A stretch of DNA of 64,000 bases, from positions 1 through 64,000 of the forward strand of contig CAVPZX010000006.1 in assembly GCA_963710375.1 (NCBI GenBank), given 5' to 3'. A program made the position numbers and the translations under genes. Every line of letters starts with the position of its first letter. Positions within the stretch are counted from its first letter, which is position 1. Below the pieces are notes generated by a model. That model was not told the DNA's origin. It did no database searches and saw only the letters and a program-made list of their open reading frames with translations. Of this stretch, positions 1,072-18,989 are shown in pieces. This DNA comes from Nitrospirota bacterium. GTDB taxonomy: Bacteria; Nitrospirota; Thermodesulfovibrionia; Thermodesulfovibrionales; Dissulfurispiraceae.

Positions 1072-1107
1072 TGACACTCCTTTCGTTTTCCTAAACTTGG
1101 AGTGTCA
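1072..1107. promoter_or_regulatory. 9-bp inverted repeat covering the transposase RBS
   Basis: TGACACTCC (1072-1080) / GGAGTGTCA (1099-1107); one arm contains the GGAG SD. Confidence 0.6.
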
Positions 1108-1153
1108 CCCTATTTCCTCAAATCCTTGGTATCATAAACTGGTCGTTAGCACA

Positions 1154-2516
1154 AGATGACGGAACCCTGAAGGTCTGGGATGCTAAGACCGGCAAGGAGC
1201 TTTTTACCCTCGATGGCCGTGCACTCCGTGTTAACCGTGTAACCTCCTGTGCGTATTCACCAAACGGCAGGCGCATTGTCTCAGGAGCAATGGACACCAC
1301 CCTGAAGGTCTGGGATGCTGAGACCGGCAAGGAGCTTTTGACCCTCAAAGGCCATACAAGTGGTGTATTCTCTTGTGCGTATTCACCTGATGGCCGGCGC
1401 ATTGTCTCGGCTTCAAATGACACCACCCTGAAGGTCTGGGATGCTGAGACCGGCAAGGAGCTTTTTACCCTCAAAGGCCATACAGCCCAGGTATACTCCT
1501 GTGCATATTCACCTGATGGCCAGCGTATTGTCTCGGCTTCAGGGGACACCACCCTGAAGGTCTGGGATGCTGAGACCGGCAAGGAACGGATTCCCTTCGA
1601 AGGTCAGACAAACTTGAGATTCTCCTGTGCGTATTCACCAGATGGCCAGCGTATTGTCGCGCTTTCATCGGCCACCACCCTGAAGGTCTGGGATGCTGAG
1701 ACCGGCAAGGAGTTTTTTACCCTCAAAGGCCATACAAACTGGGTAAACTCCTGTGCGTATTCACCAGATGGCCGGCGCATTGTCTCGGCTTCAGATGACA
1801 CCACCCTGAAGGTCTGGGATGCTGAGACCGGCAAGGAGCTTTTTACCCTCAAAGGCCATAGAGGTGTTGTAAAGTCCTGTGAGTATTCACCAGATGGCAG
1901 GCGCATTGTCTCGACTTCAGAGGACAGCACCCTGAAGGCCTGGGATGCTGAGACCGGCAAGGAGCTTTTTCCCCTCAAAGGCCATACAGGCAGTGTAACC
2001 TCCTGTGCGTATTCACCAGATGGCAGGCGCATTGTCTCGGCTTCTAATGACAACACCCTGAAGGTCTGGGATGCTGAGACTGGTCGAGAGCTTTCCTGCT
2101 TTCATGGCGCATACTACATGAGAGCAGTTGTGTGTAGAACAGGCGGGATGACGGCAGGCGACAGTGGAGGCACTATATATATACTGAAGCTGCCGGCGCT
2201 GGAGGAGAAAGAACCGTATATCACTCCGTTGCGGTTATACAGGTTTGACCGTACAGCCTGGGACGACCATCTCGCCGCTAAATGCGAATGGTGCGGCAAG
2301 AGGTTCGAACCAGACAATAAAATCATCGACACGATTAAGGGCTTCAACACCCGCCTTTCCCTAAGTCAGAGTCCCGCGGCATCCCTCCCGCCCGAAGCCT
2401 GGGACGACCCCCGCCTTTTCTCCGAATGCCCCAATTGCCACAAACCGCTGAGGTTCAATCCGTTTGTTGTCGATAATTCGCAAAAAAAGCCGTGGTGGAA
2501 ATTTTGGGGGAGATGA
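1154..2516 (+). pseudogene. 3' part of a WD40-repeat protein interrupted by IS481; C-terminal CxxC...CxxC domain
   Basis: Frame is open from 1155 (DDGTLKVWDAKTGKEL), upstream of the listed ATG at 1290, and abuts the IS end mid-repeat; CEWC...CPNC near the C terminus. Confidence 0.8.
1155..2085 (+). repeat. Tandem 126-bp near-identical WD40-coding repeats (about 7 units)
   Basis: CCTGAAGG(T/C)CTGGGATGCT recurs at 1166, 1301, 1427 and then every 126 bp; the first unit is 135 bp. Confidence 0.95.
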
Positions 2517-3736: not shown

Positions 3737-4786
3737 ATGGAAACCTACCGCGTCTTCATCAGCTATTCTCATGAGGATCGGGAATTGGCTGAAATAATCG
3801 TTAATGCCCTGAAAGAGAATGGGCTGAAACCCATGTGGGATAAGAATTTCAATTACGGACAAGGATTTCATGTTCAGATTAAAAACTTTATTGCACATTC
3901 ACATGTCTTTATGCCTTTCATTACGGAAACTTCCAGCCGGCGGGGATGGGTCCATCAGGAAATAGGATTTGCCACGGCATTGAATGTACCTGTGTTGCCG
4001 ATCACACGTGGTCAAGTCCCTGGAGAATTGCTCCAGCAGCTCCTTGCTGTACCTTTCAGCAGTGATGCAGAGGAACTTAGATCCAGACTGAATCTTAGGG
4101 TATTCGAAAAACTGGTCTCTGAAGCTCAGGGGTCTGCAAGACCTCTCTTTTATTGTGCTGAATATCGTGAAGATCGTACACGTATGATGGTGGAATATTC
4201 TAAAAGTGTGTTGCATCTTGAGGAATATGGGAGGGTGCGCCAGAAGGGAGGGTTGAGTTCTTTTCATATACCGGACAAATCGCCCCAGCATTCAGAGTGG
4301 AAGGACAGATTCGGAGCTTTTTACGATGAGTCTCATTGCCTGTTGCAGCGAGAAGAACGCAAAACGTTGGAAAAACACGCCCGTAAAGAAGGCTGCAGTC
4401 TCATAATTGATCCATATATAGACTTTCAAAGATTTGGGAGCAAAGCAGGCCCTTCCCGATTAAAATCACTTATTGAGTTTCTTGAGTCAAAAGTCATAGA
4501 CGACATTGTTGTATCTATTGTAAGTCCAGAACAAAGAGATGAACACTATTTGACGATCGTGGGAGATTGGTTTGCATCCGAAGCTGTATCCGCGTCTCTC
4601 GATAAAGGAATCCGCCAGACCATTTTCACCCGTCACGCCCCAAGTATTCGAAAGAGGATAGAGGCCTTTGACGAAGAGGTTGAACACCACCTTAAAGAAC
4701 AGGGCGTCAAACCCGAATGTTCTAAAAAGGCGGCAATAGCAAAACTACAACAATTGCTGACTGATCTAAACAACGCCCACCAATAA
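3737..4786 (+). CDS. TIR-domain protein with unknown C-terminal domain
   Basis: YRVFISYSHED...WVHQEIGFA...PVLPI; candidate catalytic Glu retained; GGAG SD. Confidence 0.85.
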   Translation: METYRVFISYSHEDRELAEIIVNALKENGLKPMWDKNFNYGQGFHVQIKNFIAHSHVFMPFITETSSRRGWVHQEIGFATALNVPVLPITRGQVPGELLQQLLAVPFSSDAEELRSRLNLRVFEKLVSEAQGSARPLFYCAEYREDRTRMMVEYSKSVLHLEEYGRVRQKGGLSSFHIPDKSPQHSEWKDRFGAFYDESHCLLQREERKTLEKHARKEGCSLIIDPYIDFQRFGSKAGPSRLKSLIEFLESKVIDDIVVSIVSPEQRDEHYLTIVGDWFASEAVSASLDKGIRQTIFTRHAPSIRKRIEAFDEEVEHHLKEQGVKPECSKKAAIAKLQQLLTDLNNAHQ

Positions 4787-5048: not shown

Positions 5049-6149
5049 TTACGACGCTGTCTCGAGTAGTTCACTGATAATGCCCTTTGCTTCCCCCTCC
5101 AGGCGTCCCATAATTGTTACGATTTGTTCATCTTCTTTGAGTGTTTTGCAGATTTGATCGAGTCTCGAAAAGTTAGAGTAGAGAAGCTTCCAGATCGGCA
5201 TTTTAATCCTGCTGTGGCCCCAGATGGTTTCTTGCTGGAGAAACCCGCTGAAAGCGCGGGAAAGCCTTTTATAGAGATTTGCCGACTTCTGGGGCAGCTC
5301 GGTCAGGACTCCTCCTTCGGTCTGTCCCAGCATTTCCAAAAAGGAGCGGATGGCCGGTTGGGGATAGACATCTTCGAAGAACCGCATCATTGTTTCATCG
5401 ACGGCGCCCCTCAGTTCACACAAATCTCCGCTCAGGCAAAGATAGAGCAGTTCGATTGCCATGTGAAACTCGTGGAGTCCCAAAAAACGTGCTGTCAGAA
5501 TGCCGAGCCGCTGATCTTCATGCCAGGCCGCCTGGAACACATGCCTGCCGAGGTTGTAGAGAAGGTTGTCCACTTTGGCCATGTCATGCTCGCCTGTTTT
5601 TCCCACCATATTAGTTATCCCCTCCCGGAACTGTGCCAACCGGAGATAATACACCTCGTGTCCCGCATCCATCAGTTTGACGAACCTCTCATCGGTCAGG
5701 GGATACCCCGAGCTCATATAGATGTCCTCTACTACGAGACTGTATTCGGCCCAGAAATCTCGTCTTGTCCTGCATATGTAGTAAACCGGCATGTGGGTGT
5801 GCAACCTGCGTATGTCCACGTGCAGGTCCCAATTGATGTTTCTTATCGCTTCCTTCAGGCTTCGCTGATCCGAAAGTAAAACCTTCATGGCTCCGTATTC
5901 GTCGTTTACCGGTATGGTGGCAGAAAAGATGTCCGTTATTTCACTCAGATCAGAGACACGCCCTCCTTTCTGTTCCAGTTTGGTCCTGATCGAGTCATAT
6001 TCCATGAGTTTCATGATTATCGGATCGAGGGCGTCACGGATATTTATCTTTTCCGAATAATACCGTCCCGGGTAGCCGTAGCCGGAATCATTTTCAATAA
6101 AATAATCTTCGATATCCCCATATCTATAGTTCATATTTCGATAGTTCAT
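5049..6149 (-). CDS. Hypothetical protein (366 aa), last gene of the AAA/vWA operon
   Basis: Long ORF; AGGAG SD before ATG 6149; the listed 5' extension lies mostly inside a MITE. Confidence 0.75.
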   Translation of the reverse strand: MNYRNMNYRYGDIEDYFIENDSGYGYPGRYYSEKINIRDALDPIIMKLMEYDSIRTKLEQKGGRVSDLSEITDIFSATIPVNDEYGAMKVLLSDQRSLKEAIRNINWDLHVDIRRLHTHMPVYYICRTRRDFWAEYSLVVEDIYMSSGYPLTDERFVKLMDAGHEVYYLRLAQFREGITNMVGKTGEHDMAKVDNLLYNLGRHVFQAAWHEDQRLGILTARFLGLHEFHMAIELLYLCLSGDLCELRGAVDETMMRFFEDVYPQPAIRSFLEMLGQTEGGVLTELPQKSANLYKRLSRAFSGFLQQETIWGHSRIKMPIWKLLYSNFSRLDQICKTLKEDEQIVTIMGRLEGEAKGIISELLETAS

Positions 6150-6177
6150 GTCATGTCTCCTATTCAACGCCTTTTTA

Positions 6178-6357
6178 GGGCTCGCGAATAAATAACTTGC
6201 ACATTGATGCATCTCAGCTTCAGGTCATCTTTACCCGATCCTCAGTCACAAAATCCTCAACGTAGCTATGCTACGCCTGCGGTTTTGCTCAGTCGGATCA
6301 GCCAAATCTGACCCAAATCTGAGCGCCTGAATATACAAGTTATCTATTAGCGAGCCC
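6178..6357. mobile_element. MITE family A, copy 1 (180 bp), TTA target duplication
   Basis: TIRs GGGCTCGCGAATAAATAACTTG; TTA at 6175-6177 and 6358-6360; near-identical inverted copy at 23627-23806. Confidence 0.85.
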
Positions 6358-8483
6358 TTAACAGACGGCTCCTCTCTTTCATACATGATGCTACGTAAGA
6401 GCCTATTTTTTCCGCGACCACGGCGCAATTGTTCAGTTCCCCGTCCGATACTGCAATGACCCTGTTAACAACGTCTTCGAATCCGGTATCTGCCGAAACG
6501 CCCAATGCCACCAGTGTAGCGTCAAGCTTGCCGTTCATTACTTTGTTGGTTGACTCGAAATACGAGTGGACCTCCTCTGCCCCGCTCATGCCTTTATGGA
6601 AACTGTTGTTCCACTTGGTGTCGGTGATGAGTATCAGATAAATCATGACAGCCTTCGCAAGGAGCCGTGCCTCTTCGATGATAAACGCGATAGAGAGGGC
6701 GTCCGACTGAACGCCCGTTCCTGTATCCGGCAGAGATACAATCGCGCGGACAGCATCTTTCCTGCTTGATGCCTGTGCCTTGCGCGGGTGATAAATCCAC
6801 TGCACAATCGGACCGGACATGCCTTCGCGAATCTCGTCGCTGTGGTAAAGCCCGGCAAGCACCTGGATTTCACTACCGGCTGTTGAACAGAGCCATCCGG
6901 CTGAAAGTATCTTCACCATCTTCATCTGTTTTTCATTCAAAGAGCCGGACCCGTCGCAGGCGATGACGAGCACAGGCCGGCCTCTGAGGTCCGCCTGTTC
7001 GGTAGTGCGGTATCGTTTAAAGACCACAGGTGAAAAGTCCGTAAGGACGATCCTCGACGGGTCTATCGAGCCGCTGCAGCGTAGTCGGATTGTCTCAGAG
7101 ACCATCTGGATGTTCGGATACAGGTTCTGCCGCAAACTCTGTATTATCGAATAGGACTCCTCAAGCAGCTTATCCAGGGCCATCATATCTTCTGAGAGTT
7201 CCACCGGTCTGTCGAATATCTCGCCGACAGCGTTCTTCTCTGTGCCTAGCAGCACGCTCACTTCATTACCGTCAGCTGGATTCCCCTGAATAGGACTGGT
7301 ATTAAAGGCATTGACCCTCATCGAAGTCTCAACCAGGTCGGAACGCATATCTTCCCAATCATTTTCCTGCTTTCCAGCCTTTTCCATTACACAGGAAAAG
7401 TTGTTTAGCACCTCCTGGAGCGGTTCTTCAAATTTGGGATTCTTACCGCGGCTATTTTGGTGTTTGTTCCCGCTGAAGACGGAAGTGAGAAGCCCTTGTG
7501 TTGTACATTTGAGCGTATCATCCGGCTCGGATATCATAGGATGTTGCGGGCCGTTCAGAGGGGCTATTTCATCTGTCACCGACTTTGCAAGCGGTTCGGG
7601 AAATCCCGCCCATTCTCTCTCAGTAGCGTCGCTTCCTGCGGACCCCGGATTTGCAACGGTTGTATTGCCTGGTTCTTGTTCATTGTCATCAGCGGGCGCC
7701 GGCATGTATTTGGACATGGCCGCACAGACCGTCCTCACCCAGAGAGATCCCAGTTTCAGGAGCTCCGTCACCTCGCACTTTCTCAGCCTTTCGAAAAAGA
7801 CGGAGCTCGAAGAGATGAGGTCTTCAAATATGGAACTGGTTAACGGATAGAGTTGCTGCTTTTTGAAATCGGGAAGGACGTCTCCGTAAAGAATCACGAC
7901 CCTGATGATTTCTGTAAGGGAAGCGAGCCTCAGGTCCTGCTGCTGAGGCTGAAAATAGTCTGTAGAGTTCAACCGACGAAAGAGATGGAATTCGCGAAAG
8001 GTTCTCAAGGAGAAGGCGTGTCTGAACACAGTCGGTTACGGAATTGGCCGCCTCCTTGTATATATCCTCATTCACTCTTACCCCATCCGCCCCGGCAGGG
8101 TTGTTCACATAATCTTGAAGGTGTATAAAAAGGATCTTTTCCCCCACAAGGGCCTCGAATTCTAAAAAAGCGGTGAGGCCGATTGCGGCATAGGCAGCAA
8201 GAGTGGAGGGATAGGTAGTATAGCAAGGACTGAGCTGGGGCTTGACTCTGGGTTCAAATGCTGCCTCTGCAAATGCGTCGTCAAGCCGCGCAACACATAT
8301 CTGGGCCTTCCTAACCATTTTATAAAAAGTCCTCTGCGCCGGCATTCTGAGGTAATAGTCGAGATTTGACTTAAAGGCGTCTCCTATGCCGATGCCGGAC
8401 CAGTCGGTCTTGGAGCGTCTCTTCCTGTAGACATATGAGTAGCCTGTTGAGAAGCCGCGCTCTTTCTTTTTCTCTCTTGCCAT
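6347..8483 (-). CDS. vWA (MIDAS) domain protein, CobT/CoxE-like; one apparent frameshift near 7946-7962
   Basis: Joins ORFs 7824..8483 and 6347..8029; GSIDPSR...VFKRY...VIACDGSGSL (DxSxS) and LILITD. Confidence 0.75.
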
Positions 8484-8493
8484 TTCTCACCCG

Positions 8494-8793
8494 CTAAAAG
8501 AGATTTCCGCCCATGGTCGGGTCGTCCTCAGCCGTCTCGTTGATCCCAAACACCTCGTTGAATATCCCGGATATCTGTTTTCGGTCTTCGGTGCTCGCAT
8601 TGCCGAGCATCGTTGCCAGCGCTATCTGCTGAATGCTCATATGAGGCAGGGCCTGTGCCATCCGGAGAAAAGCGAGATAGCCGTAAATTGTGGGGGGAGG
8701 CACTGATTGCAATGCCCCCTCAGACCTGTGCCTTCTGATGACGTTCCCAAGCTGCACCACCTTGACGATAAGGTCATTGTCTACGCGCTTCAT
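8494..8793 (-). CDS. Helical lid-like C-terminal part of the MoxR-like AAA+, as a separate ORF
   Basis: ATGA overlap with the upstream AAA gene; LIVKVVQLGNVIR...PPTIYG resembles a MoxR/CobS lid. Confidence 0.6.
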   Translation of the reverse strand: MKRVDNDLIVKVVQLGNVIRRHRSEGALQSVPPPTIYGYLAFLRMAQALPHMSIQQIALATMLGNASTEDRKQISGIFNEVFGINETAEDDPTMGGNLF

Positions 8794-9509
8794 CTCCTTA
8801 CCTCCTTTAACAGATGCTGCAGCACCTGTACCTCGTTTTCGGCGGACAGGTAATCCAGAGTCAAATTGATTGAAAATCTCCTCTTTATAGCGTCATCGAG
8901 GACAACCAGCGTATGGGTAGAGTCGCGCTCTGCCTGATAGTTGCTGTCCGCGACCCATCCTATTTGCTGGCCGTCGATGCGACTTCCGTCAGGAAGGACG
9001 ATGTCGCCCTTTGTCATCAGGTTCAAAAGTCCACCCTGGACACTGCTTGAATGGACCCGCCCCATCTCCCTGAGCCAGACAAGAGGGTAATACCTGCCGT
9101 TTGATTTTGTGGCGTCTTCGAGGGCCTCGACAAGCCTGCTTTTTTCATCGAAAGTCGTTCCGTTTTTCAGGGACCTTCTCTGGAAAAGCTCTCCAGGCGC
9201 CTCGTAGATCGCCATCTCGACCGGGTAGAGTTTCAGCGGCAGCACCAGGAACCCAAGCCCCGAACAAATACTTTCGAAATTCGCAGGAACAAGATAGAGG
9301 GCCTCAAGAAGAGAACTCTTCGCGCTGCCCGTAGGTCCGGACAGGTGGATGAACTCGTGATTGACTATGCCGTAGACAAGTGTTTCAATGATCCACTTGG
9401 GAAGGAATAATGGGTTGCCGCCAGGCACAGGTAAAAGCTCAAGCAGGTCTGTTGGGCCTGCCTTTCTTAACTCATCGGATTTATGTACCCGAAATACATC
9501 GTTTGCCAT
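8790..9509 (-). CDS. MoxR/CobS-like AAA+ ATPase core
   Basis: Walker A GPTGSAKS, Walker B-position VWLREMGR, sensor I ADSN, arginine finger LDDAIKRRF. Confidence 0.75.
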   Translation of the reverse strand: MANDVFRVHKSDELRKAGPTDLLELLPVPGGNPLFLPKWIIETLVYGIVNHEFIHLSGPTGSAKSSLLEALYLVPANFESICSGLGFLVLPLKLYPVEMAIYEAPGELFQRRSLKNGTTFDEKSRLVEALEDATKSNGRYYPLVWLREMGRVHSSSVQGGLLNLMTKGDIVLPDGSRIDGQQIGWVADSNYQAERDSTHTLVVLDDAIKRRFSINLTLDYLSAENEVQVLQHLLKEVRR

Positions 9510-9519
9510 CTGCTCCTCC

Positions 9520-11781
9520 TTATTTAGTACTCATAACAAGTCTTCCTTCATCAGTTGCTGAGACAAAAAGCGATTTATGATTATTAATTACATTGGTTCT
9601 GTTGAATTCCATGAATGCCTCTGCCGCCAGAGTGCGGCCATGTTCGAGAATGGCCCGGGCGCCAAAGGAAACAATGTTGGATTTCATAGAAGCGATGACC
9701 TTTGATCCGAGATTTTCATCTAATGCCAAGTCCATTAATTCAAGATTGAGGCGCTCTGCTGCCGAGAGGACAGCGCGTTTGATCGCCCGCTCAACGATGG
9801 ATGACAGGGCGTAACCGTCCAGGGGTTCAAATAGAATGGGTGTCCCGATTCTGCTCAGGAAGGCGCCTGAAAGCATGTTCTTGATCTCCGAGATTACACG
9901 CCGGCTGACATCCACGCGCGAAGGAGTGTTGTTGAAACCGATCCCCTTGCGGACAGTCTCGTCAAGGCCATCGGGCAGGTTCATAGTAAAGGCAAAGATA
10001 ATGTTTGAACACGAAAACATCGCGCCAGTTGCGCTCTGGGCTTCTCCTGTTTCAAGAACCTGAAGGAACAAATCCGCAATCATCGAACGCACAGAGGGTA
10101 CTGCATGGTCCATATCGCTTACCTCAACGACAACGCCGCTGTTTTGCTTGCCTGCCTGTTCCAGGCGGCCCGCCTGATAAGACATCACGATACCCCGGCC
10201 CGACCCGAGAAGCTGACTTGCTGCGGTGTGGTAGTCCGGCATGCTGGCTGCGTCTATGATGATATAGGGAATGCCGAGCCTTTGCGCAAGAAGGACAGCG
10301 CTTTCGGATTTCCCGGTTGCGGGCGTCCCCTGCGCGCAGTATCTGAGCGGCTGATGGCCGGGCCGCGTAAGGGCTTCCATCGAAAGGCGCGAGATAAGCT
10401 GTTCGAGGGCGTGGTCCTGGGCCATCAGGCTCTCCTGAAAAAAAGTCAACAAATCGGGGCTTGTTAAAATCCTTGTGAACCGTTCCTGCACTTCCGGCAA
10501 GCGGCTGACGCGTGGTCTGGGACTCAGACCGGCCAGTGTTTCCGAAAGCCCGGCAACCCTTGTTGCAAAGGATATTGCAGAGGAGTCGGGCGCCTTTATG
10601 CCCTTTGTCCTAATGTATACATTCCTCTCGACGATCACTGGAAGAATCCGCTTCTGCTCAGCCGGACTGAGGCATTGGATATCTGAGAGGGTCTTTTCGT
10701 AAAGTTCATTCTCATCCCGTGCTGACAAGCCCCCTGCGAGTCTGCCTGCGGACTTGACGGCAAAGAGGGTGAGTGCGTTGATATGTATTTCGGGAGCATG
10801 ACAAACAACAGGGAAGAGAGGATCATTGAGCGCGCCCTGACCTCCGTGAAAAACCGACTGGAGCTGTTCCAGTGTGCCGGTGAAGACAACCGGCCTGCGT
10901 ATGGTCGAAAGGGCGGCCAGTAGCGCATCCACTTCTTTCCCCATCTCATAGAGGTTAGACCCGAGACTTATACTCATCGCCGCAATGACAACTCTTCCGG
11001 GGGCCTTCTGAGCCAACTCGGGTATGCCCTTAACTGCAACTGCGGGGGGTGTCAAGACACCGAGTGTATCCCCCGCATCCCTGAGTGCTCCTGCCAAGGC
11101 AGCCATTGCATACTCGTTTTCGATGCTGAACGGTGACGATACAGCAACGTTGACAGATCCTGACAGAAAATCCATGATCTCCCCTGTCCATCTGGAGAGG
11201 TTTGTGCAGTCTCCGGTTTCGGCAGCCTCTAAAGCATGGACAGGCCGCAGGAAATCTGCAAAATCTTTGTAGAGTTTAGTAAGCCTGGAGTCATAGCTTT
11301 TCTCGGGCAGTTCAGCCTGGAGGGTTTTTGCCAGCTCATTTATACGTTTTATCTCCCCAATTAAGGCCATCTCTCTTGTCATAGACATTGGAGATGCCTT
11401 TATATCGAGTGCAACCCATAGGGAAATCTCTCCGCTTGTTTCCTCATGCGGCGGACAGAGCCGGACCCGACTGCCAACCTCGGAAAGATGTTTGAAAAAA
11501 GCGCCTGAGGAGACACGGATGTTTTCATGCCCCCTCACCAGTTCCATACTCAGAGTTATGACCGCGTTGTCAGTCAATTTGCCTGAAACAGAGAGTATCC
11601 CGTCTATGTTTCCTCCGCTCTTCCTTCCGGAATCGAATGAAGATACGTCAGGCCCGACGTGGATATCCAATGACAGCCCTTTCCGGCACAGATCCGCAAC
11701 CTGGTGCAGGGCGTCTCTACACCCCGCCGGTCCCCACGGATCCGTCAGGTTATCGCAGTCTGTGCCGGTATCCTTATTCAT
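9520..11781 (-). CDS. ClpA/ClpB-like AAA+ protein (D2-type domain) with unusual N-terminal region, 753 aa
   Basis: GTPATGKS, ASQLLGSGRGIV, FLQVLETGE, NIIFAFTMN, FLSRI and FGARAI align with Clp D2 motifs; start moved to ATG 11781, downstream of the sigma54 site. Confidence 0.75.
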   Translation of the reverse strand: MNKDTGTDCDNLTDPWGPAGCRDALHQVADLCRKGLSLDIHVGPDVSSFDSGRKSGGNIDGILSVSGKLTDNAVITLSMELVRGHENIRVSSGAFFKHLSEVGSRVRLCPPHEETSGEISLWVALDIKASPMSMTREMALIGEIKRINELAKTLQAELPEKSYDSRLTKLYKDFADFLRPVHALEAAETGDCTNLSRWTGEIMDFLSGSVNVAVSSPFSIENEYAMAALAGALRDAGDTLGVLTPPAVAVKGIPELAQKAPGRVVIAAMSISLGSNLYEMGKEVDALLAALSTIRRPVVFTGTLEQLQSVFHGGQGALNDPLFPVVCHAPEIHINALTLFAVKSAGRLAGGLSARDENELYEKTLSDIQCLSPAEQKRILPVIVERNVYIRTKGIKAPDSSAISFATRVAGLSETLAGLSPRPRVSRLPEVQERFTRILTSPDLLTFFQESLMAQDHALEQLISRLSMEALTRPGHQPLRYCAQGTPATGKSESAVLLAQRLGIPYIIIDAASMPDYHTAASQLLGSGRGIVMSYQAGRLEQAGKQNSGVVVEVSDMDHAVPSVRSMIADLFLQVLETGEAQSATGAMFSCSNIIFAFTMNLPDGLDETVRKGIGFNNTPSRVDVSRRVISEIKNMLSGAFLSRIGTPILFEPLDGYALSSIVERAIKRAVLSAAERLNLELMDLALDENLGSKVIASMKSNIVSFGARAILEHGRTLAAEAFMEFNRTNVINNHKSLFVSATDEGRLVMSTK

Positions 11782-11830
11782 CTGTAGTCTTCCTTGAATT
11801 AGACTTCTATTACATTTTCGTTCCATTAGA

Positions 11831-11846
11831 TGCATCTGCTGTGCCA
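11831..11846 (-). promoter_or_regulatory. sigma54 -24/-12 promoter of the AAA/vWA operon
   Basis: Minus strand TGGCACAGCAGATGCA (GG-N10-GC), 50 bp before the ATG. Confidence 0.7.
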
Positions 11847-12123
11847 CATAATTCAACGGCGCTTGAACTCATTGCTATATAAAGATTTGCAATGAGCCAG
11901 GTACTGAGATGCCTTACGGATTGTTGAATTCAGGGAGTTGAGTTATGTGGAACGACGTTGAGTTGCCTGCTTTGATCCTTAGCTCTTTTCGCCTGTCATT
12001 CAGGAATCTTTCTTAAGTACGAAAGGATTCCCGAGGCTTTGACGGTATCGTAGCAATTACAGTTTCCCGTTGCTTTCCCATGAATTTACTGGTAAGATTC
12101 TTTCATCATGTAGCGGAGGGCCT

Positions 12124-13833
12124 ATGAAAATTCAAAGCCTGAAGTTTACTGCAAACCCCGGGGACAGTCATCCCCTCCAGACCGATTTGGGGATCGGCAG
12201 CCCCCAGGAATTTGAGAAACTAAGAGATGGCACTCTTCCAGTCGCCTACCTTGTCATTAAAGAACATCTCACAACAATCTATGGTTTCAACGACCTTGTT
12301 ATTAACCGGGGAACGAAGAACAAGGGCAAGGGCCTTTTTGACTATTTTAGTGAGATGAATAATGACAAGATATTGGTCATTGACGTAAATTATGATCAGG
12401 GAGGGAGACTGGCAAGTGGCATCAAGAAATTGCTCTTTAATGCATCAGAAAACAAAAAACGCAATGTCTTTATTATCGGAGCGGAGAAAAAGCTCTTTAA
12501 GGAGTTGTGGGACAGAGCCGAAAATACTGAAAAGGCAGAGGCCAAAAAAAAGAGCGGTGCCGTGGCTAAAGATACTCCGCGCGGAAGTGAACAGTGTGAC
12601 CCTGCAACGGCCCGGATATTTGATTTGGTACATGACCATAGCGATAAATCTGATAAGCTTGCAAATGTATATATAGGCTGCTCTGATGAGGCAAAGCTCG
12701 TCAGAAATCTGATACTAAAAGCCAGCATGGTTGATGACCCGGTCATGATCCTTGGTGACACCGGGACAGGCAAGGAAATAATCGCCAACCAGATACATGA
12801 ATGTGGCCAAAAAGGTGGAAAGTTTAAGGTGATAAATTGCGGCGGAATAACCGAGACACTCTTTGAGTCTGAACTGTTTGGATATAAAAAAGGTGCATTT
12901 ACTGATGCGCGTGAGCACAGGGCTGGACTTTGGGTAGAAGCCCAAGATGGAACACTTTTCCTTGATGAGATAGGAGACCTTCCCCTCAGCCAGCAGGTCA
13001 AAATATTGCGCGTCCTTTCTACCGGCACGATCAGACGTGTAGGTGATACAGACGACATTGAAGTCACTGCCCGTGTTGTTACTGCAACAAATCGCAATCT
13101 CTCCTCGATGGTCCAGTCAGGGCAATTCCGGGAAGATTTGTATTACCGACTTCGGGGTTTCCTGATTACTACCTCGCCTCTGAGAAAACATCCAGCGGAT
13201 ATCCCATTGCTTGCGCAGCATTTCTGGAAGAATATAATGAAAGACAACTCCTGTTCACTGCCCGAAGAAATATTGGATGAGCTTCAGTCTTACCTCTGGC
13301 CGGGAAATGCGAAGGAACTCGACATGGTATTAAAGAACCTCCATGCGCTCTACCTTGAGGAATCCAAAGAGGGCAGGCTCAAGGTTGCACACCTAAAGGC
13401 TGTGTTTTATCTCCAAGGACAGAGCGCAGTCATAACTGACGGTCCAGTGACTGAACAGGAAGTCCCAATGTACCGGGCAGAATGCCTGCGACACCTGAAG
13501 CGAGTTAATGAGGTAGTCCATGCGACTAGGGTAACCATACTTTCGGGAATTGAGGGAAGTAGACTCGACCGGTCAATCGAGACTGTTAACAGGTTATTGG
13601 GCCTGCGCCTTCTAGAGCTTGAGAACCTCTGCACCAAACCGTCGCTTTTTGACTCCGAGCCTACCTTCTCGACAGTTTATAAGCTTGTCGGAAAACTTAA
13701 GTATTTTCAGGATCTGCTTCTTGAAGACGGCAAGAAGGCAAGGAGGTATTGGAATAAAGATGTGATGGAAGAGATAAAGGTTGTTATTTCGACTGTCTTT
13801 AGGGAGATTGAGAGGGTTTTGGGGAAGGGGTGA
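12124..13833 (+). CDS. sigma54-dependent activator (bEBP) with atypical N- and C-terminal regions
   Basis: GDTGTGKE, ESELFG, GAFTDA, LFLDEIGD, FREDLYYRL, WPGN; GGAGG SD before ATG 12124. Confidence 0.9.
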   Translation: MKIQSLKFTANPGDSHPLQTDLGIGSPQEFEKLRDGTLPVAYLVIKEHLTTIYGFNDLVINRGTKNKGKGLFDYFSEMNNDKILVIDVNYDQGGRLASGIKKLLFNASENKKRNVFIIGAEKKLFKELWDRAENTEKAEAKKKSGAVAKDTPRGSEQCDPATARIFDLVHDHSDKSDKLANVYIGCSDEAKLVRNLILKASMVDDPVMILGDTGTGKEIIANQIHECGQKGGKFKVINCGGITETLFESELFGYKKGAFTDAREHRAGLWVEAQDGTLFLDEIGDLPLSQQVKILRVLSTGTIRRVGDTDDIEVTARVVTATNRNLSSMVQSGQFREDLYYRLRGFLITTSPLRKHPADIPLLAQHFWKNIMKDNSCSLPEEILDELQSYLWPGNAKELDMVLKNLHALYLEESKEGRLKVAHLKAVFYLQGQSAVITDGPVTEQEVPMYRAECLRHLKRVNEVVHATRVTILSGIEGSRLDRSIETVNRLLGLRLLELENLCTKPSLFDSEPTFSTVYKLVGKLKYFQDLLLEDGKKARRYWNKDVMEEIKVVISTVFREIERVLGKG

Positions 13834-14118: not shown

Positions 14119-14946
14119 ATGGAAACTGCCGATATAGAATATCTGATGGAGCATCCCGAAGAGGCCCTGAGGCTTGATGTAAAAACCAATACTGACCAGG
14201 TAATTAAGCAGGCGCAATGGGCGGGGATTGGTCCTGGCATGCGCGTCGCGGACGTCGGCTGCGGGTCGGGTAAAACGACATTTATTCTGCACGGAATGGT
14301 GCAGCCTGGTGGATCGGTTGTAGGCATCGACGGGTCGCAACAGAGAATCCATTATGCGCAAAAGAAATACTCTTCAGAAGGCATCGAATACATAAAAAGA
14401 GACTTACACGAGCCCCTTGATGATCTCGGGAAATTTGACGCCGTTTGGGTACGATTTTTTCTGGAATACTACCGCGCTGAAGCCTTCGATCTAGTAAGAA
14501 ATATTTCACAACTCGTAAAACCGAACGGAACATTATGCCTTATCGATCTTGACCGCAATTGCTTAAATCTTTATGGTATATCCGACAGGCTGATGCGAAC
14601 AATTCTGCAGGCAGTACAGATCCTCGAAGAAGAAAAGAACTTCGATCCCTACATGGGGGCAAAACTCTTCGGATTCCTTGCAGAGTTGGGGTATGAGGAT
14701 CTTGCATATGATGTAAGCGCTCACCACTTTATCTACGGCGAGCTGAAGGACGCCGACGCCTATAACTGGTTTAAGAAAATGGAAGTGGTCGCTCTTAAAA
14801 CGAATTGTTCGTTTGGAGAATACGAAAACGGCTATGAAGGATTCAAAAAAGAGTTCTATGAGTATATGACCAATCCTAAACGCTTTATTTACACGCCTGT
14901 TATTTGTGCAAAAGGACGAAAGCCGGTTGAATACCAAACACCGTGA
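14119..14946 (+). CDS. Class I SAM-dependent methyltransferase
   Basis: VADVGCGSG motif I; VVGIDGS. Confidence 0.85.
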   Translation: METADIEYLMEHPEEALRLDVKTNTDQVIKQAQWAGIGPGMRVADVGCGSGKTTFILHGMVQPGGSVVGIDGSQQRIHYAQKKYSSEGIEYIKRDLHEPLDDLGKFDAVWVRFFLEYYRAEAFDLVRNISQLVKPNGTLCLIDLDRNCLNLYGISDRLMRTILQAVQILEEEKNFDPYMGAKLFGFLAELGYEDLAYDVSAHHFIYGELKDADAYNWFKKMEVVALKTNCSFGEYENGYEGFKKEFYEYMTNPKRFIYTPVICAKGRKPVEYQTP

Positions 14947-14950
14947 TGGT

Positions 14951-16921
14951 TTAAAAAAGCTTCTGGTTTTCCCGATTGACTAAATTAAAGAATGCGTCAA
15001 GGACTCTACCATCGAAGTGTTGGTCTCTTTCGCTTTTAAGCAGCTCGAAAGCGTCATTTAGCTGCATAGGGCCCCTGTAATGTCTTTTTGCTGTAACGGC
15101 TTCAAAAACGTCTGCGACGGCGAGGATGCGGGCGCCGAGAGGTATTTGTTCCCCTTTAAGTCCATCAGGATAGCCTTTGCCGTTATACTTTTCATGATGC
15201 GCACCGGCTATCTGCGGGACCTCCTTGTATATCCCCTCAAAGTTTATTTGTTCCAGGATTTCCCGTGTTTTTGATGCGTGTTTCTTTATTTCTTCATACT
15301 CATCTGCTGTGAGACGCCCCTCTTTTTTCAGTATTTCATCTTTTATGGCGATTTTTCCGTAATCATGCAGAAGCGCTGCCACGCGTATCACCTCGCAGTA
15401 GTCCTTACCCAGTCCCATTTCTCTGGCGATATTGACGGCATACTTGGTCACGTCCTCGGAATGTCCGGCGGTGAGAAAATCGCGCGCGTCAATGCTTGCT
15501 GCGAGCACCTGCAGTATGTTCTGAAATTGGCGTTCTTTAACCTCGATGAGCATGGCGTTTCTGATGCTTATTGCTATCTCGGGCGCTACTCCCATTAAAA
15601 GGCTTATATCGCTTTGCACCAAAGGTCTTTTTGTCCTTATGTTATCCACGGCGAGGACACCGAGACACTCATGCTCGTATATAATGGGGCAGCATATGAA
15701 TGATTTGGTGCCCATGCTGAGGGCGAATGATAGGCTATGGGGTGACAGATCATGCTGTATTTCATTAACGTCATTAATTAGAAAGGAGCGGTGTTCCCGG
15801 TAGCAGAGGGCGAAGACTCCGCGGGATGCACGGTTGGTGAGGTTGAACTTTGCGTGCATCAGCACTTTAAATTGGTCGTTAGTGTATCCATAGCCGGCCC
15901 GGTAGACAAGTTCTGTTTTTTCCGGATTTGCAAGGAAGATGGCTCCACGATCGTATGAGAGCCTTTTTTGCAATATGTCGGTGACATTGGCGAGGATGTC
16001 TTCTACCTCGAGCTGCTTGCTGAGCGCCATGCCGATTTCATTGATCAACAGGGCATGATTGTAGTTAAGGTCTATGTGCTCTAGCAGCTTGTCTGATGAC
16101 ACATTGACGTTGTTGAGAGCCTCTTTGAACTCTTTGACCTCAAGACGCATGGCATAAAACGTAAGGGCCCATAGAATAAGCATTGATGAGGGAAGACCTG
16201 CAACGAGAGTAAAGTAGGGGTTATAGAGAGAATATCCTGCACACAACGCGACAAGAGCTGCGGCTGCGTAATTACGGCGCTTTCTCCATTGGGCTGCAGG
16301 AGACTCTTGCCATGATACCACGTAGCGGCAGCATTTGCCGCCTTTGTGCAGACATTCTTCATGCTCTAAAACAGGCAGACGGTAATTGAAAACAGCGGTG
16401 CACGCTTCTAAGAAACCCATACGGTTTTGGCATTGGTATGGCTTCTCATTGACTCCTTGAATGTTGCTAACAGTGATTTCGCAGGAGGTCACCGACAGCT
16501 TCTTCCATTTGTATTGTGATGCCCTGGTGAAATTCGTAGCGAACTTCCCTACCAGCTCGTAGACCTTTGAGGGACTGAACAGGCTCAGGAGGTATTGCTG
16601 CATTGTCCCTATCGCTTCCGGTGATGCGGAGTATCTTCCTGCCTCCCGTGCGATGTTGTTATTGCCGGTCAGTTTAACGAGTCTTTCGTAAAAACTGTCT
16701 ACCTGATACTGGTTGAACCAGTGAGCCTCATCCTGGACCTGGTACATCTCCATCCCGGCATAGCTCAGCAGCTCTCTGATGTTGATGTAGCTGTAGTTCT
16801 TTTTTATCATATTGATGTATACGACGATAATACGGCTTGAATATAGCGGCTGGAAGTCGATGGGAGCTGCATGTTCCTCTACTTTGAAAAGCGGCATTAC
16901 GTCAAGATTGTGCTTTTTCAT
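14951..16921 (-). CDS. Membrane HD-GYP phosphodiesterase with V4R-like N-terminus and GAF domain
   Basis: LLHDYGK and HHEKYNGKGYP; GAF region (FICCPII...LAVDN); two TM helices; Cys-rich HEECLHKGGKCC. Confidence 0.85.
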   Translation of the reverse strand: MKKHNLDVMPLFKVEEHAAPIDFQPLYSSRIIVVYINMIKKNYSYINIRELLSYAGMEMYQVQDEAHWFNQYQVDSFYERLVKLTGNNNIAREAGRYSASPEAIGTMQQYLLSLFSPSKVYELVGKFATNFTRASQYKWKKLSVTSCEITVSNIQGVNEKPYQCQNRMGFLEACTAVFNYRLPVLEHEECLHKGGKCCRYVVSWQESPAAQWRKRRNYAAAALVALCAGYSLYNPYFTLVAGLPSSMLILWALTFYAMRLEVKEFKEALNNVNVSSDKLLEHIDLNYNHALLINEIGMALSKQLEVEDILANVTDILQKRLSYDRGAIFLANPEKTELVYRAGYGYTNDQFKVLMHAKFNLTNRASRGVFALCYREHRSFLINDVNEIQHDLSPHSLSFALSMGTKSFICCPIIYEHECLGVLAVDNIRTKRPLVQSDISLLMGVAPEIAISIRNAMLIEVKERQFQNILQVLAASIDARDFLTAGHSEDVTKYAVNIAREMGLGKDYCEVIRVAALLHDYGKIAIKDEILKKEGRLTADEYEEIKKHASKTREILEQINFEGIYKEVPQIAGAHHEKYNGKGYPDGLKGEQIPLGARILAVADVFEAVTAKRHYRGPMQLNDAFELLKSERDQHFDGRVLDAFFNLVNRENQKLF

Positions 16922-18989
16922 GGTGCCATTTATTGATCAAGTGTTCCATGTAGTTGAGATAATCGTCCGAATACTGCACGTCCACTACGAAGAGATTGTA
17001 GCGTTTCTTAGAAATGGCTTGATTGTTCTGCCCGTAATGGGCAGGGAAAAGAAGGACGGGAATGGATTCCTGGTCGTAGAACTTTGAGAGTGCGGAGAGC
17101 ACGGAAGAGATGTTTGCCGGCGAGACATTCTTGCTATCGAGCACGAACACGTGGATGCAGTTTGTAACGTCCGACATGTTCAGTCCGGGGTTTGAGATCA
17201 GCACCATGAAGATCGCCTGTACGTTGCCCCCACTTTTCAAGCTGAACAAATGTCGCTCGCGGTGGAATCCTATTTTCTTGTACTCTTCATCCAGTTCGTG
17301 GGCATGGAGCATGTGCGGCTCGAGGTCCAGGGCGCTTAGCATCAACCCAGACGAAACGTGCTCGTAGAATTGTGCAAGCTCGTAGAGATCGTCTTCGACC
17401 GTTTCTTGAAGATGCAGTCCTTCCTGGATTAACTCGCTCGTGACGAAGCCCTTATTGAAGGAGAAGTAGCCGAATGTGTCGAATGAACATTTTTTGGGGT
17501 CTTGGATTACCTTAACGCAACCGCTATAAATTCGGTCGGCAAAACGGTTGTCCGGTCTGTAGTACCCGATAATAAAGGACATGTGTGTTGTGTAGAACGA
17601 ATAAGAGTCATTAATGTACCGGTGTATTTGATTCATAACTTCGAGGCCTGCGCGGTTATTGCGAGAGCGGCTTGCGTGATGCTCAGTGAGCCAGGAATAC
17701 TCATAAACTCTCAGCGCTGTCATATGGGCCTGTATTCTTCCACGTTCCTGGTAGATAAAGTGACGGGCTATATCAGTATTCGCATAGAGTTTTTTGAATG
17801 TCTCCTTGAACTGCTCTTTTTTTGTATGCATCAGGGCGTACTTGTTGGGGTAGATGAAGCCTGTCTCAAAAAAAAATCTCCAGAGCTCGTTGAGGTCAAT
17901 CCTTGTGGAGACGTATGATTTCCGGTCTTTGGCGTGATGGAGCAGCGAAGAAAGCCGCATTTGGTCATCCATTCCCATGTCAATAGCGGCGATGCCGCAC
18001 CTAGCTAACAACTGGTTGTTATCATCCTTTGCAAGGGTCCGATGGATGACCTGAGCTTTGCATGAAATAGTGAGGTCGCCGGCGACTTCTATGCCAATTT
18101 GAGGGAGTATCATGCCAGGGACCAGGACAGACTCTTCGTAAGACTCTTCGACAAGAAATCCGGATGCAGACAAATTACTGGTTTCCAGGTTGATAAGCTT
18201 GCCGGTGAAAGGATGTGTAAAGACTATGTTAGGGGAGGGATGTAATGTCTGCCTCTGACTTCTATAATCTTTTTGTTTGTAACGCTGTATTGTTTGCTCC
18301 AGGGCTTCGAGCACGAAGATTCTTTTTTCCCGGTTGTTTGTCCGTTTTATAATGCGGCAATTGCCGGAATAGAGAATTTCTCCCCCGACGCGGCTGAATA
18401 TAATAATAGTGACGTTAGCCTCGGTATTGAGCAATTTAAAGGTGACATCAGGAGGTCTTTCAAATATCTCAATTCTGAACGAAAGGGCGCTGAAGTCGAT
18501 AAGCGCTCCCTGGAACTTAATGCCGGATTGAAGGACCTCGACCGGAATGTTACTGCAGCGGTGTCTGCGGACCTTCCGCACTTTGCGTTGGAAACAGTTT
18601 TCCGGTAGTGTCAGTGTGATATAGTCCTGGTGGAGGATGTTTACCATCGGCTGTGCGAACAAGAGGTTTTCCCCATCGGTCAGTCGTATATTCACTAATT
18701 CATAGTTTGCGAGCTTCCTAAGGAGTTGTTCGCCGGGGTTTCTCCACTTGCATGTGAGAGACTCTCCGCTGCACGGTTGGGGCAGAGCCTCTATCGACAG
18801 TACTGCATTATAGCGGCTATGCCTGAATCTGAGTACTACGGTTTCGTCCTGGAAGTGAAGGTAATTGAGAGAGTTGACGATGCGCTGCCGCGGTATTGTC
18901 CTGCACGGCTCATCAATGCTTTCAATATCGAGGTGCTCCACCAGGTTGGCAACTTGGTTGCCCTCCCGGCTGGTCTCTTCATTCTTCAT
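16902..18989 (-). CDS. Large PilZ-domain protein
   Basis: RKVRR...DFSALS and second RSQR...NLSASG PilZ-like motifs. Confidence 0.65.
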   Translation of the reverse strand: MKNEETSREGNQVANLVEHLDIESIDEPCRTIPRQRIVNSLNYLHFQDETVVLRFRHSRYNAVLSIEALPQPCSGESLTCKWRNPGEQLLRKLANYELVNIRLTDGENLLFAQPMVNILHQDYITLTLPENCFQRKVRKVRRHRCSNIPVEVLQSGIKFQGALIDFSALSFRIEIFERPPDVTFKLLNTEANVTIIIFSRVGGEILYSGNCRIIKRTNNREKRIFVLEALEQTIQRYKQKDYRSQRQTLHPSPNIVFTHPFTGKLINLETSNLSASGFLVEESYEESVLVPGMILPQIGIEVAGDLTISCKAQVIHRTLAKDDNNQLLARCGIAAIDMGMDDQMRLSSLLHHAKDRKSYVSTRIDLNELWRFFFETGFIYPNKYALMHTKKEQFKETFKKLYANTDIARHFIYQERGRIQAHMTALRVYEYSWLTEHHASRSRNNRAGLEVMNQIHRYINDSYSFYTTHMSFIIGYYRPDNRFADRIYSGCVKVIQDPKKCSFDTFGYFSFNKGFVTSELIQEGLHLQETVEDDLYELAQFYEHVSSGLMLSALDLEPHMLHAHELDEEYKKIGFHRERHLFSLKSGGNVQAIFMVLISNPGLNMSDVTNCIHVFVLDSKNVSPANISSVLSALSKFYDQESIPVLLFPAHYGQNNQAISKKRYNLFVVDVQYSDDYLNYMEHLINKWHHEKAQS

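What the first reader, a model, noticed from the sequence alone, without database searches (positions are those of the whole stretch)
5049..13833. Candidate new system: sigma54-activated Clp-like AAA+ / MoxR-like AAA+ / vWA / unknown-protein operon
Seen: a tightly packed minus-strand operon (gaps of about 10 bp or overlaps once the MITE is removed). It encodes a 753-aa Clp-D2-like ATPase, a MoxR-like ATPase with lid, a ~711-aa vWA protein and a 366-aa unknown. It has a sigma54 -24/-12 site and a divergent bEBP, and sits beside TIR, PIN-TA, WD40, TPR and IS genes. Known: MoxR-vWA pairs remodel client proteins, and MoxR-vWA ternary conflict systems (VMAP, iSTAND, FtsH, beta-propeller types) have been proposed. 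I know of none with a Clp-like third component and its own sigma54 activator. Inference: an inducible protein-remodelling defence or stress machine, with the 366-aa protein as client or effector.
Basis: partly seen in the sequence, partly recalled or inferred. Interest (0 to 1): 0.88.

Follow-up and report, generated by a model that had tools for sequence, protein, structure and literature searches.

The report
Sigma54-induced triple-ATPase immune remodelling cassette
This is a real, rare but widely scattered bacterial gene cassette of three ring-shaped ATPases, an adaptor and a protein of no named family; it often sits among immune genes and likely works as an inducible switch that activates and then destroys a defence protein.

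Summary
The operon is real and conserved. Where contigs allowed, 39 GTDB loci found with the 366-aa gene carried vWA in 37/37, the MoxR-like gene in 34/34, the Clp-like gene in 29/30 and a sigma54 activator in 21/26. It was not found in 400 other genomes of the host's phylum.

Two corrections. The window's vWA frameshift is an assembly error. The MoxR core and lid are two genes here, a real fission also seen in 10 of 55 other loci.

New anatomy:
- Clp-like protein: YbjN/T3SS-chaperone fold, a dead first ring, and a second ring with an altered Walker B and an IGF loop.
- MoxR/vWA pair: closest to CobS, with an intact MIDAS.
- 366-aa protein: weakly resembles the DUF6421/DPP-III fold.
- Activator: lacks an HTH and carries a RyR domain in two loci.

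A sigma54 site is conserved (18/38 loci against 2% of shuffles). Flanks are rich in TIR and RyR genes. The closest described system is Kaur 2020's simple FtsH ternary type, but its defining FtsH domain is not met. No binding, expression or activity was shown. Verdict: new variant of the MoxR-vWA conflict systems.

The parts
12124..13833 (+). Dedicated sigma54 activator-like AAA+ (569 aa): family-specific N-terminal domain, AAA+ core with GAFTDA, helical C-terminal domain and no HTH. A RyR domain replaces the C-domain in L034 and L076.
11831..11846 (-). Sigma54 -24/-12-like site TGGCAC-N5-ATGCA, 65 nt upstream of the Clp-like ATG
   Evidence: 18/38 loci score 9 or more of 11; 0/38 on the reverse strand; 2.1% of shuffles
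9520..11781 (-). Clp-like AAA+ (753 aa): predicted YbjN/T3SS-chaperone N-domain, degenerate first ring, second ring with intact Walker A, 'EhSD' Walker B, Arg finger, sensor 2 and an IGF loop
8790..9509 (-). CobS-like MoxR-clade AAA+ core (239 aa): GxxG[ST]AK[ST] P-loop, 'LRE' Walker B
8494..8793 (-). Separately encoded lid (small subdomain) of the CobS-like ATPase (99 aa) with its own RBS and ATGA overlap
6347..8483 (-). vWA adaptor (711 aa once the assembly error at 7943 is discounted): helical N-domain, low-complexity linker, vWA with intact MIDAS
   Evidence: weak CobT lead
6175..6360 (.). MITE inserted in the last codons of the vWA gene; multicopy in the genome
5049..6149 (-). 366-aa protein (U366) of an unnamed family: disordered Y/G/S/D-rich N-tail, tentative DUF6421/DPP-III-like fold, conserved W-H-E-D-Q motif and E233
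3737..4786 (+). TIR_2 protein with an unnamed C-domain, convergent on the operon; the only TIR_2 match in the genome. Full-length homologues flank 4 other loci.

Best explanation
The cassette is a conserved five-to-six-gene unit that likely acts as a sigma54-inducible immune switch: a CobS/CobT-like motor would activate the 366-aa protein, and a YbjN-fused Clp-like unfoldase would feed it, or its partner, to ClpP. Step 1 (inferred): an infection or damage signal, in some hosts probably a TIR-made ADP-ribose derivative read by a RyR domain, turns on the dedicated HTH-less activator. Step 2 (site shown, activation inferred): the operon is transcribed from the conserved -24/-12 promoter. Step 3 (homology shown, binding inferred): the CobS-like hexamer threads the vWA protein, whose intact MIDAS grips U366 and remodels it or loads its metal, as CobST does with CobN. 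Step 4 (fold and motif shown, use inferred): the Clp-like ring catches an unstructured tail, most likely U366's Y/G/S/D-rich N-tail, through its YbjN domain and docks on ClpP through its IGF loop, setting a threshold or time limit. The altered Walker B motifs in both operon ATPases suggest slow or partner-gated motors rather than decay (inferred).
For: Fixed order and co-occurrence; vWA always abuts U366, and L048 keeps MoxR-vWA-U366 without the Clp gene. Sigma54 site in 18/38 loci against 0/38 reversed and 2.1% of shuffles; rpoN and clpP are present in the host. The nearest solved relative of the MoxR-like family is CobS (E 2e-9); MIDAS D-x-S-x-S and the last Asp are 51/51. The Clp N-domain matches AmyR/YbjN (Foldseek E 6.6e-4), and 11 of the top 14 VIA rows are named T3SS chaperones or YbjN-like proteins. 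IGF loop: G 37/37, F or Y 37/37, aligned to ClpC's VGF. Patchy distribution: 0/400 others in the host phylum, 3/400 in a second phylum. RyR genes in 26/39 host genomes against 1/14 controls. RyR, TIR or DUF4062 in 13/26 GTDB flanks of 13 kb or more, against 1/261 tiles of the own genome, that tile being this locus. Activator-RyR fusions in 2 loci; a phage RyR domain binds gcADPR and cADPR (10.64898/2026.06.04.730250, passages).
Against: No interaction, expression or activity was measured. The U366 fold match is modest (Z 7.3-7.5, rmsd 6.5-6.9, below the tool's Z 8 caution). There is no profile match to an M49 peptidase, and the second His of HExxH is mostly Arg. The GAFT loop is intact in only 12/23 activators; a strong site accompanies 7/12 intact and 5/11 degenerate ones, and 20/38 loci lack a strong site. 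The host genome has no RyR gene. The cassette has no hypervariable effector, unlike most described ternary conflict systems. Half of the long flanks (13/26) showed none of the three immune markers. The flank HMMs were seeded from these same neighbours, kin loci are not independent, and the tile control is one genome. Both Walker B motifs lack the canonical Asp, so ATP hydrolysis is not assured.
Confidence: 0.42

Rival explanations
1. General sigma54-induced protein quality-control or stress machine. The two motors and the adaptor act on variable host or invader proteins, perhaps the neighbouring TIR, NLR-like and RyR effectors, and U366 is a catalytically dead scaffold rather than the effector.
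For: U366's metal motif is incomplete; the cassette is constant while neighbours vary; YbjN-type domains are proposed as chaperones for modified proteins (PMC9503650, passages).
Against: U366 keeps many near-invariant polar residues (R114, S146, D153, R155, H210, D212, Q213, E233, R247), which fits an active site. Rarity and island location do not suit a general stress system.
Confidence: 0.24
2. Metabolic metallo-enzyme maturation unit. U366 is a PolE-like non-haem iron enzyme, the CobS/CobT-like pair inserts its metal as NorQD and CobST do for their clients, and the immune neighbours reflect shared island carriage.
For: PolE/DUF6421 is the best full-length fold match in three searches. H210-E/D211 and E233 echo the DUF6421 HE/DxxH-x21-23-E motif (PMC12614342, passages). 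CobS is the nearest solved MoxR.
Against: The second His is absent (R in 68/126). No metabolic or transport gene recurs among the 100 neighbours scanned. It does not explain the IGF-bearing Clp ring or the activator-RyR fusions.
Confidence: 0.16
3. It is already described: the simple FtsH-type MoxR-vWA ternary system of Kaur 2020, with U366 as NEFF1 and the double AAA+ labelled FtsH there.
For: Same design: two AAA+ domains with a dead first ring and an extra N-domain, vWA with a large helical N-domain, standalone effector genes, and a GxxxTAKS P-loop.
Against: The second ring matches ClpC/ClpA (E 1.6e-17) while classical AAA chains score only E 0.0018 or worse, and its Walker B is non-canonical, whereas the paper describes a fully active FtsH-type domain. 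bpMoxR matches only weakly, best E 7e-4, P-loop region in member 1. No ternary-system Pfam family appears among the 25 of 29 families listed for 98 U366 members, apart from one chance-level EAD9 hit. The passages read mention no sigma54 activator.
Confidence: 0.1
4. Decaying or selfish cargo with no current function.
For: Odd Walker B motifs, a split MoxR gene, a MITE and an apparent frameshift in this copy.
Against: The motif changes are family-wide, the frameshift is an assembly error, the split recurs with RBS and ATG, and the order is kept across about nine phyla.
Confidence: 0.03

Closest known systems
Simple 'FtsH' MoxR-vWA ternary conflict system (Kaur, Burroughs, Iyer, Aravind 2020; PMC7159879, section 21 read)
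   Same: MoxR with GxxxTAKS-type P-loop; vWA with a large helical N-domain; third component with two AAA+ domains, the first dead, plus an extra N-domain; standalone downstream gene; patchy distribution.
   Different: Second ring is Clp-type with an IGF loop and altered Walker B, not FtsH-type; N-domain has a YbjN fold; MIDAS is intact; a dedicated sigma54 activator and promoter are present; a radical SAM neighbour was seen once among 100 neighbours scanned (L068); hosts are uncultured MAGs with no actinobacterial title among 39.
CobS-CobT(-CobN) cobaltochelatase motor and NorQ-NorD (10.64898/2026.07.21.739949 passages; 10.64898/2026.10.09.757910 abstract; PMC9976466 and PMC13036017 search listing only)
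   Same: CobS is the nearest solved relative, including the lid; the vWA partner has a helical N-domain, linker and MIDAS. In CobST the isolated small subdomain binds the CobT N-domain, which makes a free lid plausible.
   Different: Walker B is R-E instead of D-E and there is no Arg at the CobS sensor-2 position; no CobN-like client was found; the lid is a separate gene in 11 of 56 loci counting the window; two more ATPases are attached.
Class I Clp/Hsp100 ATPases ClpA, ClpC and ClpV
   Same: N-domain plus two AAA+ rings; D2 homology to ClpC/ClpA; IGF/VGF-type loop.
   Different: YbjN fold instead of Clp-N repeats; D1 without Walker A Lys or Arg fingers; D2 Walker B 'EhSD' and an Ile in the pore loop; all NCBIfam Clp models far below cut-off.
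DUF6421/PolE Fe-pterin oxidases and DPP III (M49)
   Same: Best full-length structural match for U366; a His-Glu/Asp pair followed by a downstream Glu.
   Different: Second His replaced, usually by Arg; 8-14% identity; no sequence-profile support.
Sigma54 activators linked to defence or stress operons (RtcR, PspF) and HTH-less activators (FlgR, CtcC; recalled, not tested)
   Same: AAA+ core with Walker A and B intact in 25/25; divergent position; GAFTDA is listed as an active variant (PMC4641369, passages).
   Different: N- and C-domains match nothing searched; RyR fusion in two loci; loop degenerate in 11/23.

Membership tests
FtsH-type MoxR-vWA ternary system (Kaur 2020) | MoxR plus vWA plus a third component with two AAA+ domains, the first inactive | tested here: met
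FtsH-type MoxR-vWA ternary system (Kaur 2020) | Second AAA+ domain is an active FtsH-type ATPase | tested here: not met
   Profile hits ClpC/ClpA at E 1.6e-17; classical AAA chains at E 0.0018 or worse; Walker B 'EhSD'
FtsH-type MoxR-vWA ternary system (Kaur 2020) | GxxxTAKS-type P-loop in MoxR | tested here: met
   G-x-x-G-[ST]-A-K-[ST], Ala in 36/39; definition
FtsH-type MoxR-vWA ternary system (Kaur 2020) | MoxR belongs to the bpMoxR subfamily | tested here: inconclusive
   26/39 members match weakly (best E 7e-4); member 1 scores 13.9 bits against a cut-off of 27, P-loop only. No genuine FtsH-system proteins were recovered for direct comparison.
FtsH-type MoxR-vWA ternary system (Kaur 2020) | NEFF1 or radical-SAM effector gene adjacent | not testable with these tools
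   NEFF1 sequences are in fig1-data1.pdf, too large to read; radical SAM seen once among 100 neighbours
VMAP, iSTAND, iSTAND2, TERNS3 and beta-propeller ternary systems | Named third component and variable effector or propeller fused to vWA | tested here: not met
   vWA is 672-805 aa with no C-terminal extension in 54 loci; no such Pfam hit in 51 vWA members
Cobaltochelatase CobST | CobS-like AAA+ with CobT-like N-domain/linker/vWA partner | tested here: inconclusive
   CobS E 2e-9; CobT only a 0.88 Atlas lead; no PDB or Pfam hit for vWA
Cobaltochelatase CobST | Canonical Walker B D-E and sensor-2 Arg | tested here: not met
   R-E in 33/39, P-E in 4/39; no Arg at the sensor-2 position
ClpA/ClpC class I Clp ATPases | Clp-N domain and two active rings | tested here: not met
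   YbjN fold; D1 degenerate
ClpA/ClpC class I Clp ATPases | IGF/L ClpP-docking loop (role recalled) | tested here: met
   motif present in 37/37; binding not testable here
YbjN/T3SS chaperone fold | Helix, five-to-six-strand sheet, long C-terminal helix over a whole domain | tested here: met
   model pLDDT 86; Z 8.0, rmsd 3.9-4.4 over 126-133 residues; Foldseek E 6.6e-4
DUF6421/PolE | Overall fold | tested here: inconclusive
   Z 7.3-7.5, rmsd 6.5-6.9, 236-255 aligned; Foldseek E 7.6e-3
DUF6421/PolE | HE/DxxH-x21-23-E metal motif | tested here: not met
   H-E-D-Q-R, second His absent; register assigned by motif only, not from a residue-level structural alignment
RelA/SpoT synthetase | Profile or fold match of U366 | tested here: inconclusive
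   weak Atlas leads from a poor model; hhalign probability 0.2%; U366 N-domain was not folded alone
Sigma54 enhancer-binding protein | AAA+ core with GAFTGA-type loop | tested here: met
   window GAFTDA; G[AS][FY][TS] in 12/23 loci with promoter data
Sigma54 enhancer-binding protein | C-terminal HTH | tested here: not met
   no HTH hit; helical or RyR C-domain
PADLOC-named defence systems | Full-length hit to a named system protein | tested here: not met
   only weak partial AAA+ matches for operon proteins; the activator matches RtcR/PspF models in its AAA+ core only

The most novel reading that the evidence does not exclude
An undescribed immune circuit. TIR-made cyclic ADP-ribose signals are read by RyR domains on neighbouring effectors and, in some hosts, on the cassette's own sigma54 activator. 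This induces a two-motor machine: a CobST-like motor with a detachable lid arms a new zincin-fold effector, and a YbjN-targeted Clp/ClpP arm times or ends the response. It would link nucleotide-signal immunity to sigma54 transcription and to regulated proteolysis, and give bacterial RyR domains a host-side role.
Probability: 0.25. Interest if true: 0.9.

Novelty: new variant of a known kind. Interest (0 to 1): 0.72.

Why it matters
MoxR-vWA ternary conflict systems were proposed from comparative genomics. This one is compact and invariant, and it has its own promoter and activator, so it can be synthesised and tested as a unit. It adds several things I did not find in the papers searched: a YbjN-targeted Clp ATPase with a dead first ring, two neighbouring AAA+ proteins with fixed non-canonical Walker B motifs, an AAA+ gene that has split between core and lid apparently more than once, and sigma54 activators fused to RyR, a domain recently shown to bind Thoeris signals. 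If the defence reading holds, it shows transcriptional induction and proteolytic timing layered on bacterial innate immunity.

Tried and rejected
U366 as a RelA/SpoT synthetase: suggested by motif resemblance and weak Atlas leads, but hhalign against six neighbouring RelA_SpoT domains gave 0.2%, so it was dropped. U366 against a neighbouring M49 peptidase: 1.0%. U366 had no significant PDB sequence, viral fold or Pfam match.

DUF6421, YbjN and bpMoxR family searches returned no sequences for direct comparison. vWA had no significant PDB, Pfam or NCBIfam match.

The split MoxR as a sequencing frameshift and the vWA as a pseudogene were both rejected. A link between an intact GAFT loop and promoter presence was not seen. 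One versus several origins of the split is unresolved: the core tree needs 5 changes but starred branches force only 1; the Clp tree needs 6, at least 4 forced, AU p = 0.050.

No RNA holder was listed. Eight literature searches returned results on this system or its neighbours (one search concerned DUF6421), and none listed a paper describing this cassette. Most subscription journals are not in the library, and the supplement fig1-data1 of PMC7159879 could not be read.
Full report
OBSERVATION. The minus strand carries a 753-aa ORF (9520-11781), a 239-aa ORF (8790-9509), a 99-aa ORF (8494-8793), two overlapping ORFs of 219 and 560 aa (8483 to 6347) and a 366-aa ORF (5049-6149). A 569-aa sigma54 activator-like gene runs divergently from 12124. 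Gaps are 10 bp or overlaps, except for a MITE at about 6175-6360 with 43-nt inverted arms, which has about 30 near-full-length copies in the genome and supplies the vWA stop codon. The window is the start of contig C6 of a 3.19-Mb genome. Left of the operon are a TIR_2 gene, a PIN plus MazE/PrlF-type pair, a WD40 gene that begins mid-repeat and a transposase. I saw no TPR gene among the 32 ORFs scanned.

TWO BREAKS WITH OPPOSITE MEANINGS. Contigs of the three runs that cover the vWA gene all lack one base at 7943 and show no other indel in the operon outside the MITE. Two of these runs are flagged as possible sources of this DNA; the three come from two studies. Of 59 homologous vWA genes, 57 are single ORFs. 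The vWA break is thus an assembly error and the protein is 711 aa. The MoxR split is real: 45 of 55 homologous loci are fused and 10 are split at the same junction, each with a purine-rich RBS and an ATG for the lid. On a tree of the Clp-like partner the split state needs 6 changes, at least 4 forced by well-supported branches, but the AU test is borderline (p = 0.050). A tree of the core itself does not exclude one origin. Repeated fission is likely, not proven.

CONSERVATION. The 366-aa protein (U366) has 247 homologues at 90% clustering and 263 at 50% clustering, the listed full-length ones mostly 330-410 aa. An alignment recovered 39 GTDB loci from 199 pattern matches, all MAGs, with titles and tree labels spanning about nine phyla, and 47 metagenome loci from 261 matches. 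Where the contig left room, GTDB loci had vWA in 37/37, MoxR in 34/34, Clp-like in 29/30 and a sigma54 activator in 21/26; metagenome loci had 30/32, 18/20, 17/19 and 9/14. The activator count includes a few loci where only the AAA+ core matches. Searching from the MoxR side gave 0 of 400 other genomes in the host phylum and 3 of 400 in a second phylum. One of these, G188, was new and holds all four operon genes in order. Sixty close relatives gave only partial, 29%-or-less matches to ordinary Clp proteins.

CLP-LIKE PROTEIN. The C-terminal ring matches ClpC/ClpA (E 1.6e-17) but falls far below all NCBIfam Clp cut-offs. In 37 sequences Walker A Lys, sensor 1, the Arg finger and sensor 2 are invariant. 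Walker B reads E-h-S-D instead of h-h-D-E, the pore loop has Ile, and an [IFL]-G-[FY]-type loop lies where ClpC has VGF; that this loop docks ClpP is recalled knowledge. The first ring has no Walker A Lys and no Arg fingers, but keeps a conserved FxGGQG motif. The N-domain model (pLDDT 86) matches YbjN/AmyR and T3SS chaperones. Such folds were proposed as peptide-binding chaperones in other conflict systems (PMC9503650, passages). The host has clpP and rpoN.

MOXR AND VWA. The nearest solved relative is CobS (E 2e-9), and the lid aligns to the CobS small subdomain. In CobST that subdomain co-crystallises on its own with the CobT N-domain, and the client CobN sits between CobT's two domains near the MIDAS (10.64898/2026.07.21.739949, passages; abstract of 10.64898/2026.10.09.757910). 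The catalytic Glu, sensor 1 and both Arg fingers are 39/39. The Walker B Asp is Arg in 33/39, and the sensor-2 Arg is missing. The vWA protein hits no library searched, yet its MIDAS residues are 51/51, and its N-domain gives a weak CobT lead.

U366. The model is confident (pLDDT 92). The best full-length match in three searches is PolE/DUF6421 (Z 7.3-7.5, rmsd about 6.7), with DPP III at Z 5.6, which is below the tool's caution level. W209-H210-E211-D212-Q213 and E233 are conserved in 126 diverse sequences, but the position of the second His of HE/DxxH is mostly Arg (motif from PMC12614342, passages). The first 35 or so residues are low-confidence and rich in Y, G, S and D. A RelA/SpoT reading failed a profile test.

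REGULATION. A -24/-12 site scoring 9 or more of 11 lies within 300 nt above the Clp-like gene in 18 of 38 loci, against 0 of 38 on the reverse strand and 2.1% of block shuffles; four of the 38 are near kin. The activators form their own family, with Walker A and B intact in 25/25, no HTH, and N- and C-domains that match nothing searched. GAFTDA is listed as an active variant (PMC4641369, passages). However, the loop is degenerate in 11 of 23 loci and this does not track the promoter, which hints at a second, non-transcriptional role. In L034 and L076 a RyR domain replaces the C-domain.

NEIGHBOURHOOD. Recurrent neighbours are TIR and DUF4062 proteins with NACHT/WD40/TPR regions, RelA_SpoT-RyR, TrkA_N-RyR, AAA-RyR and small NUDIX-like ORFs (NUDIX label from a recalled motif). 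RyR genes occur in 26 of 39 host genomes and 1 of 14 controls. RyR, TIR or DUF4062 lie in 13 of 26 GTDB loci of 13 kb or more and 8 of 11 such metagenome loci, against 1 of 261 tiles of the own genome. Those HMMs were seeded from the same neighbours and kin are not independent, so the size of the enrichment is overstated. The host's only TIR_2 gene is the one next to the operon, and it has no RyR gene. A phage RyR domain binds gcADPR and cADPR through residues that include H129 and W132 (10.64898/2026.06.04.730250, passages). An HxxW motif is present in 20 of 22 RyR hits here; the correspondence rests on spacing only.

MECHANISM. Shown: gene order, motifs, promoter enrichment, the YbjN fold, the fission and the neighbour bias. 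Inferred: activator-driven sigma54 induction; capture and activation of U366 by the CobS/CobT-like pair; tail recognition and ClpP delivery by the Clp-like ring; a defence role. I put this chain at 0.42, a general quality-control reading at 0.24, metabolic enzyme maturation at 0.16, identity with a described system at 0.10 and decay at 0.03.

COMPARISON. Kaur 2020 (PMC7159879; abstract, sections 8, 18, 20, 21, 22 and passages read) describes a simple FtsH-type ternary system with a very similar layout and a GxxxTAKS MoxR. Its defining active FtsH-type domain is not met here, bpMoxR matches only weakly, and the passages mention no sigma54 activator. The supplement that lists its members could not be read, so overlap is not fully excluded. 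Kaur 2021 (PMC8195603, passages) adds iSTAND2 and TERNS3 types, which need vWA-linked variable effectors that are absent here. Two earlier AI notes from this scan describe the same cassette in other genomes; they agree but are not independent evidence. I found no paper on this cassette in the searches listed under Tried and rejected.

VERDICT. A real, conserved cassette with no description found in those searches; a new variant of the MoxR-vWA multi-component conflict systems. The anatomy is well supported and the function is untested. Interest 0.72.

Noticed in passing
L016, L017, L018, L020, L022, L025, L026, L042, L044, L049 flanks: A recurring unnamed gene set built on RyR domains: RelA_SpoT(-SLOG)-RyR, TrkA_N-RyR with a likely membrane N-terminus, a roughly 900-1000-aa AAA-RyR protein, TIR and a NUDIX-like ORF. 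It may be a TIR-to-RyR nucleotide-signalling defence system in its own right.
   Followed up: partly
window 3737-4786; L016, L017, L022, L066: TIR_2 fused to an unnamed C-terminal domain of about 220 aa; keeps the WVxQE motif with the Glu recalled as catalytic. L016 also has a second, fragmented copy.
   Followed up: partly
window 1-2516: A transposase (1-1077, minus, runs off the contig) lies directly before a WD40 ORF that starts mid-repeat and ends in a CxxC...CxxC tail; probably the remnant of an NLR-like gene cut by the IS. Similar tails occur in L053 and L083.
   Followed up: no
window 6175-6360; also 23624-23793 and about 33758-33805: A host MITE family of about 185 bp with about 30 near-full-length genome copies; here it replaced the last codons of vWA without removing the U366 RBS.
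   Followed up: partly
L043: Two tandem, divergent copies of the cassette.
   Followed up: no
L018 11637-21068 and L025 11373-21026: A conserved gene run directly downstream of U366 that includes an Hsp70 and several unnamed ORFs, possibly another chaperone-based conflict module.
   Followed up: no
L032, L033, L038, L039, L064 (Clp-like gene); L057, L081 (vWA): Frame breaks in single genes at different positions; not checked against reads.
   Followed up: no
L026 1307-2275, L015 6705-8204, L068 11282-12430: A second AAA_5 ATPase, a TCAD9 (ternary-complex-associated) domain protein and a radical SAM/SPASM gene next to the cassette, each in one locus.
   Followed up: no
window 14119-18989: Methyltransferase convergent with an HD_5/GAF gene and a 695-aa gene with a weak PilZ match; apparently unrelated signalling genes beyond the activator.
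   Followed up: no
window 58706-61320: The Lon-like ORF at 58706-60103 is 465 aa and ends about halfway through the protease domain (Lon_C 4-111 of 205); it may be broken or misassembled.
   Followed up: no
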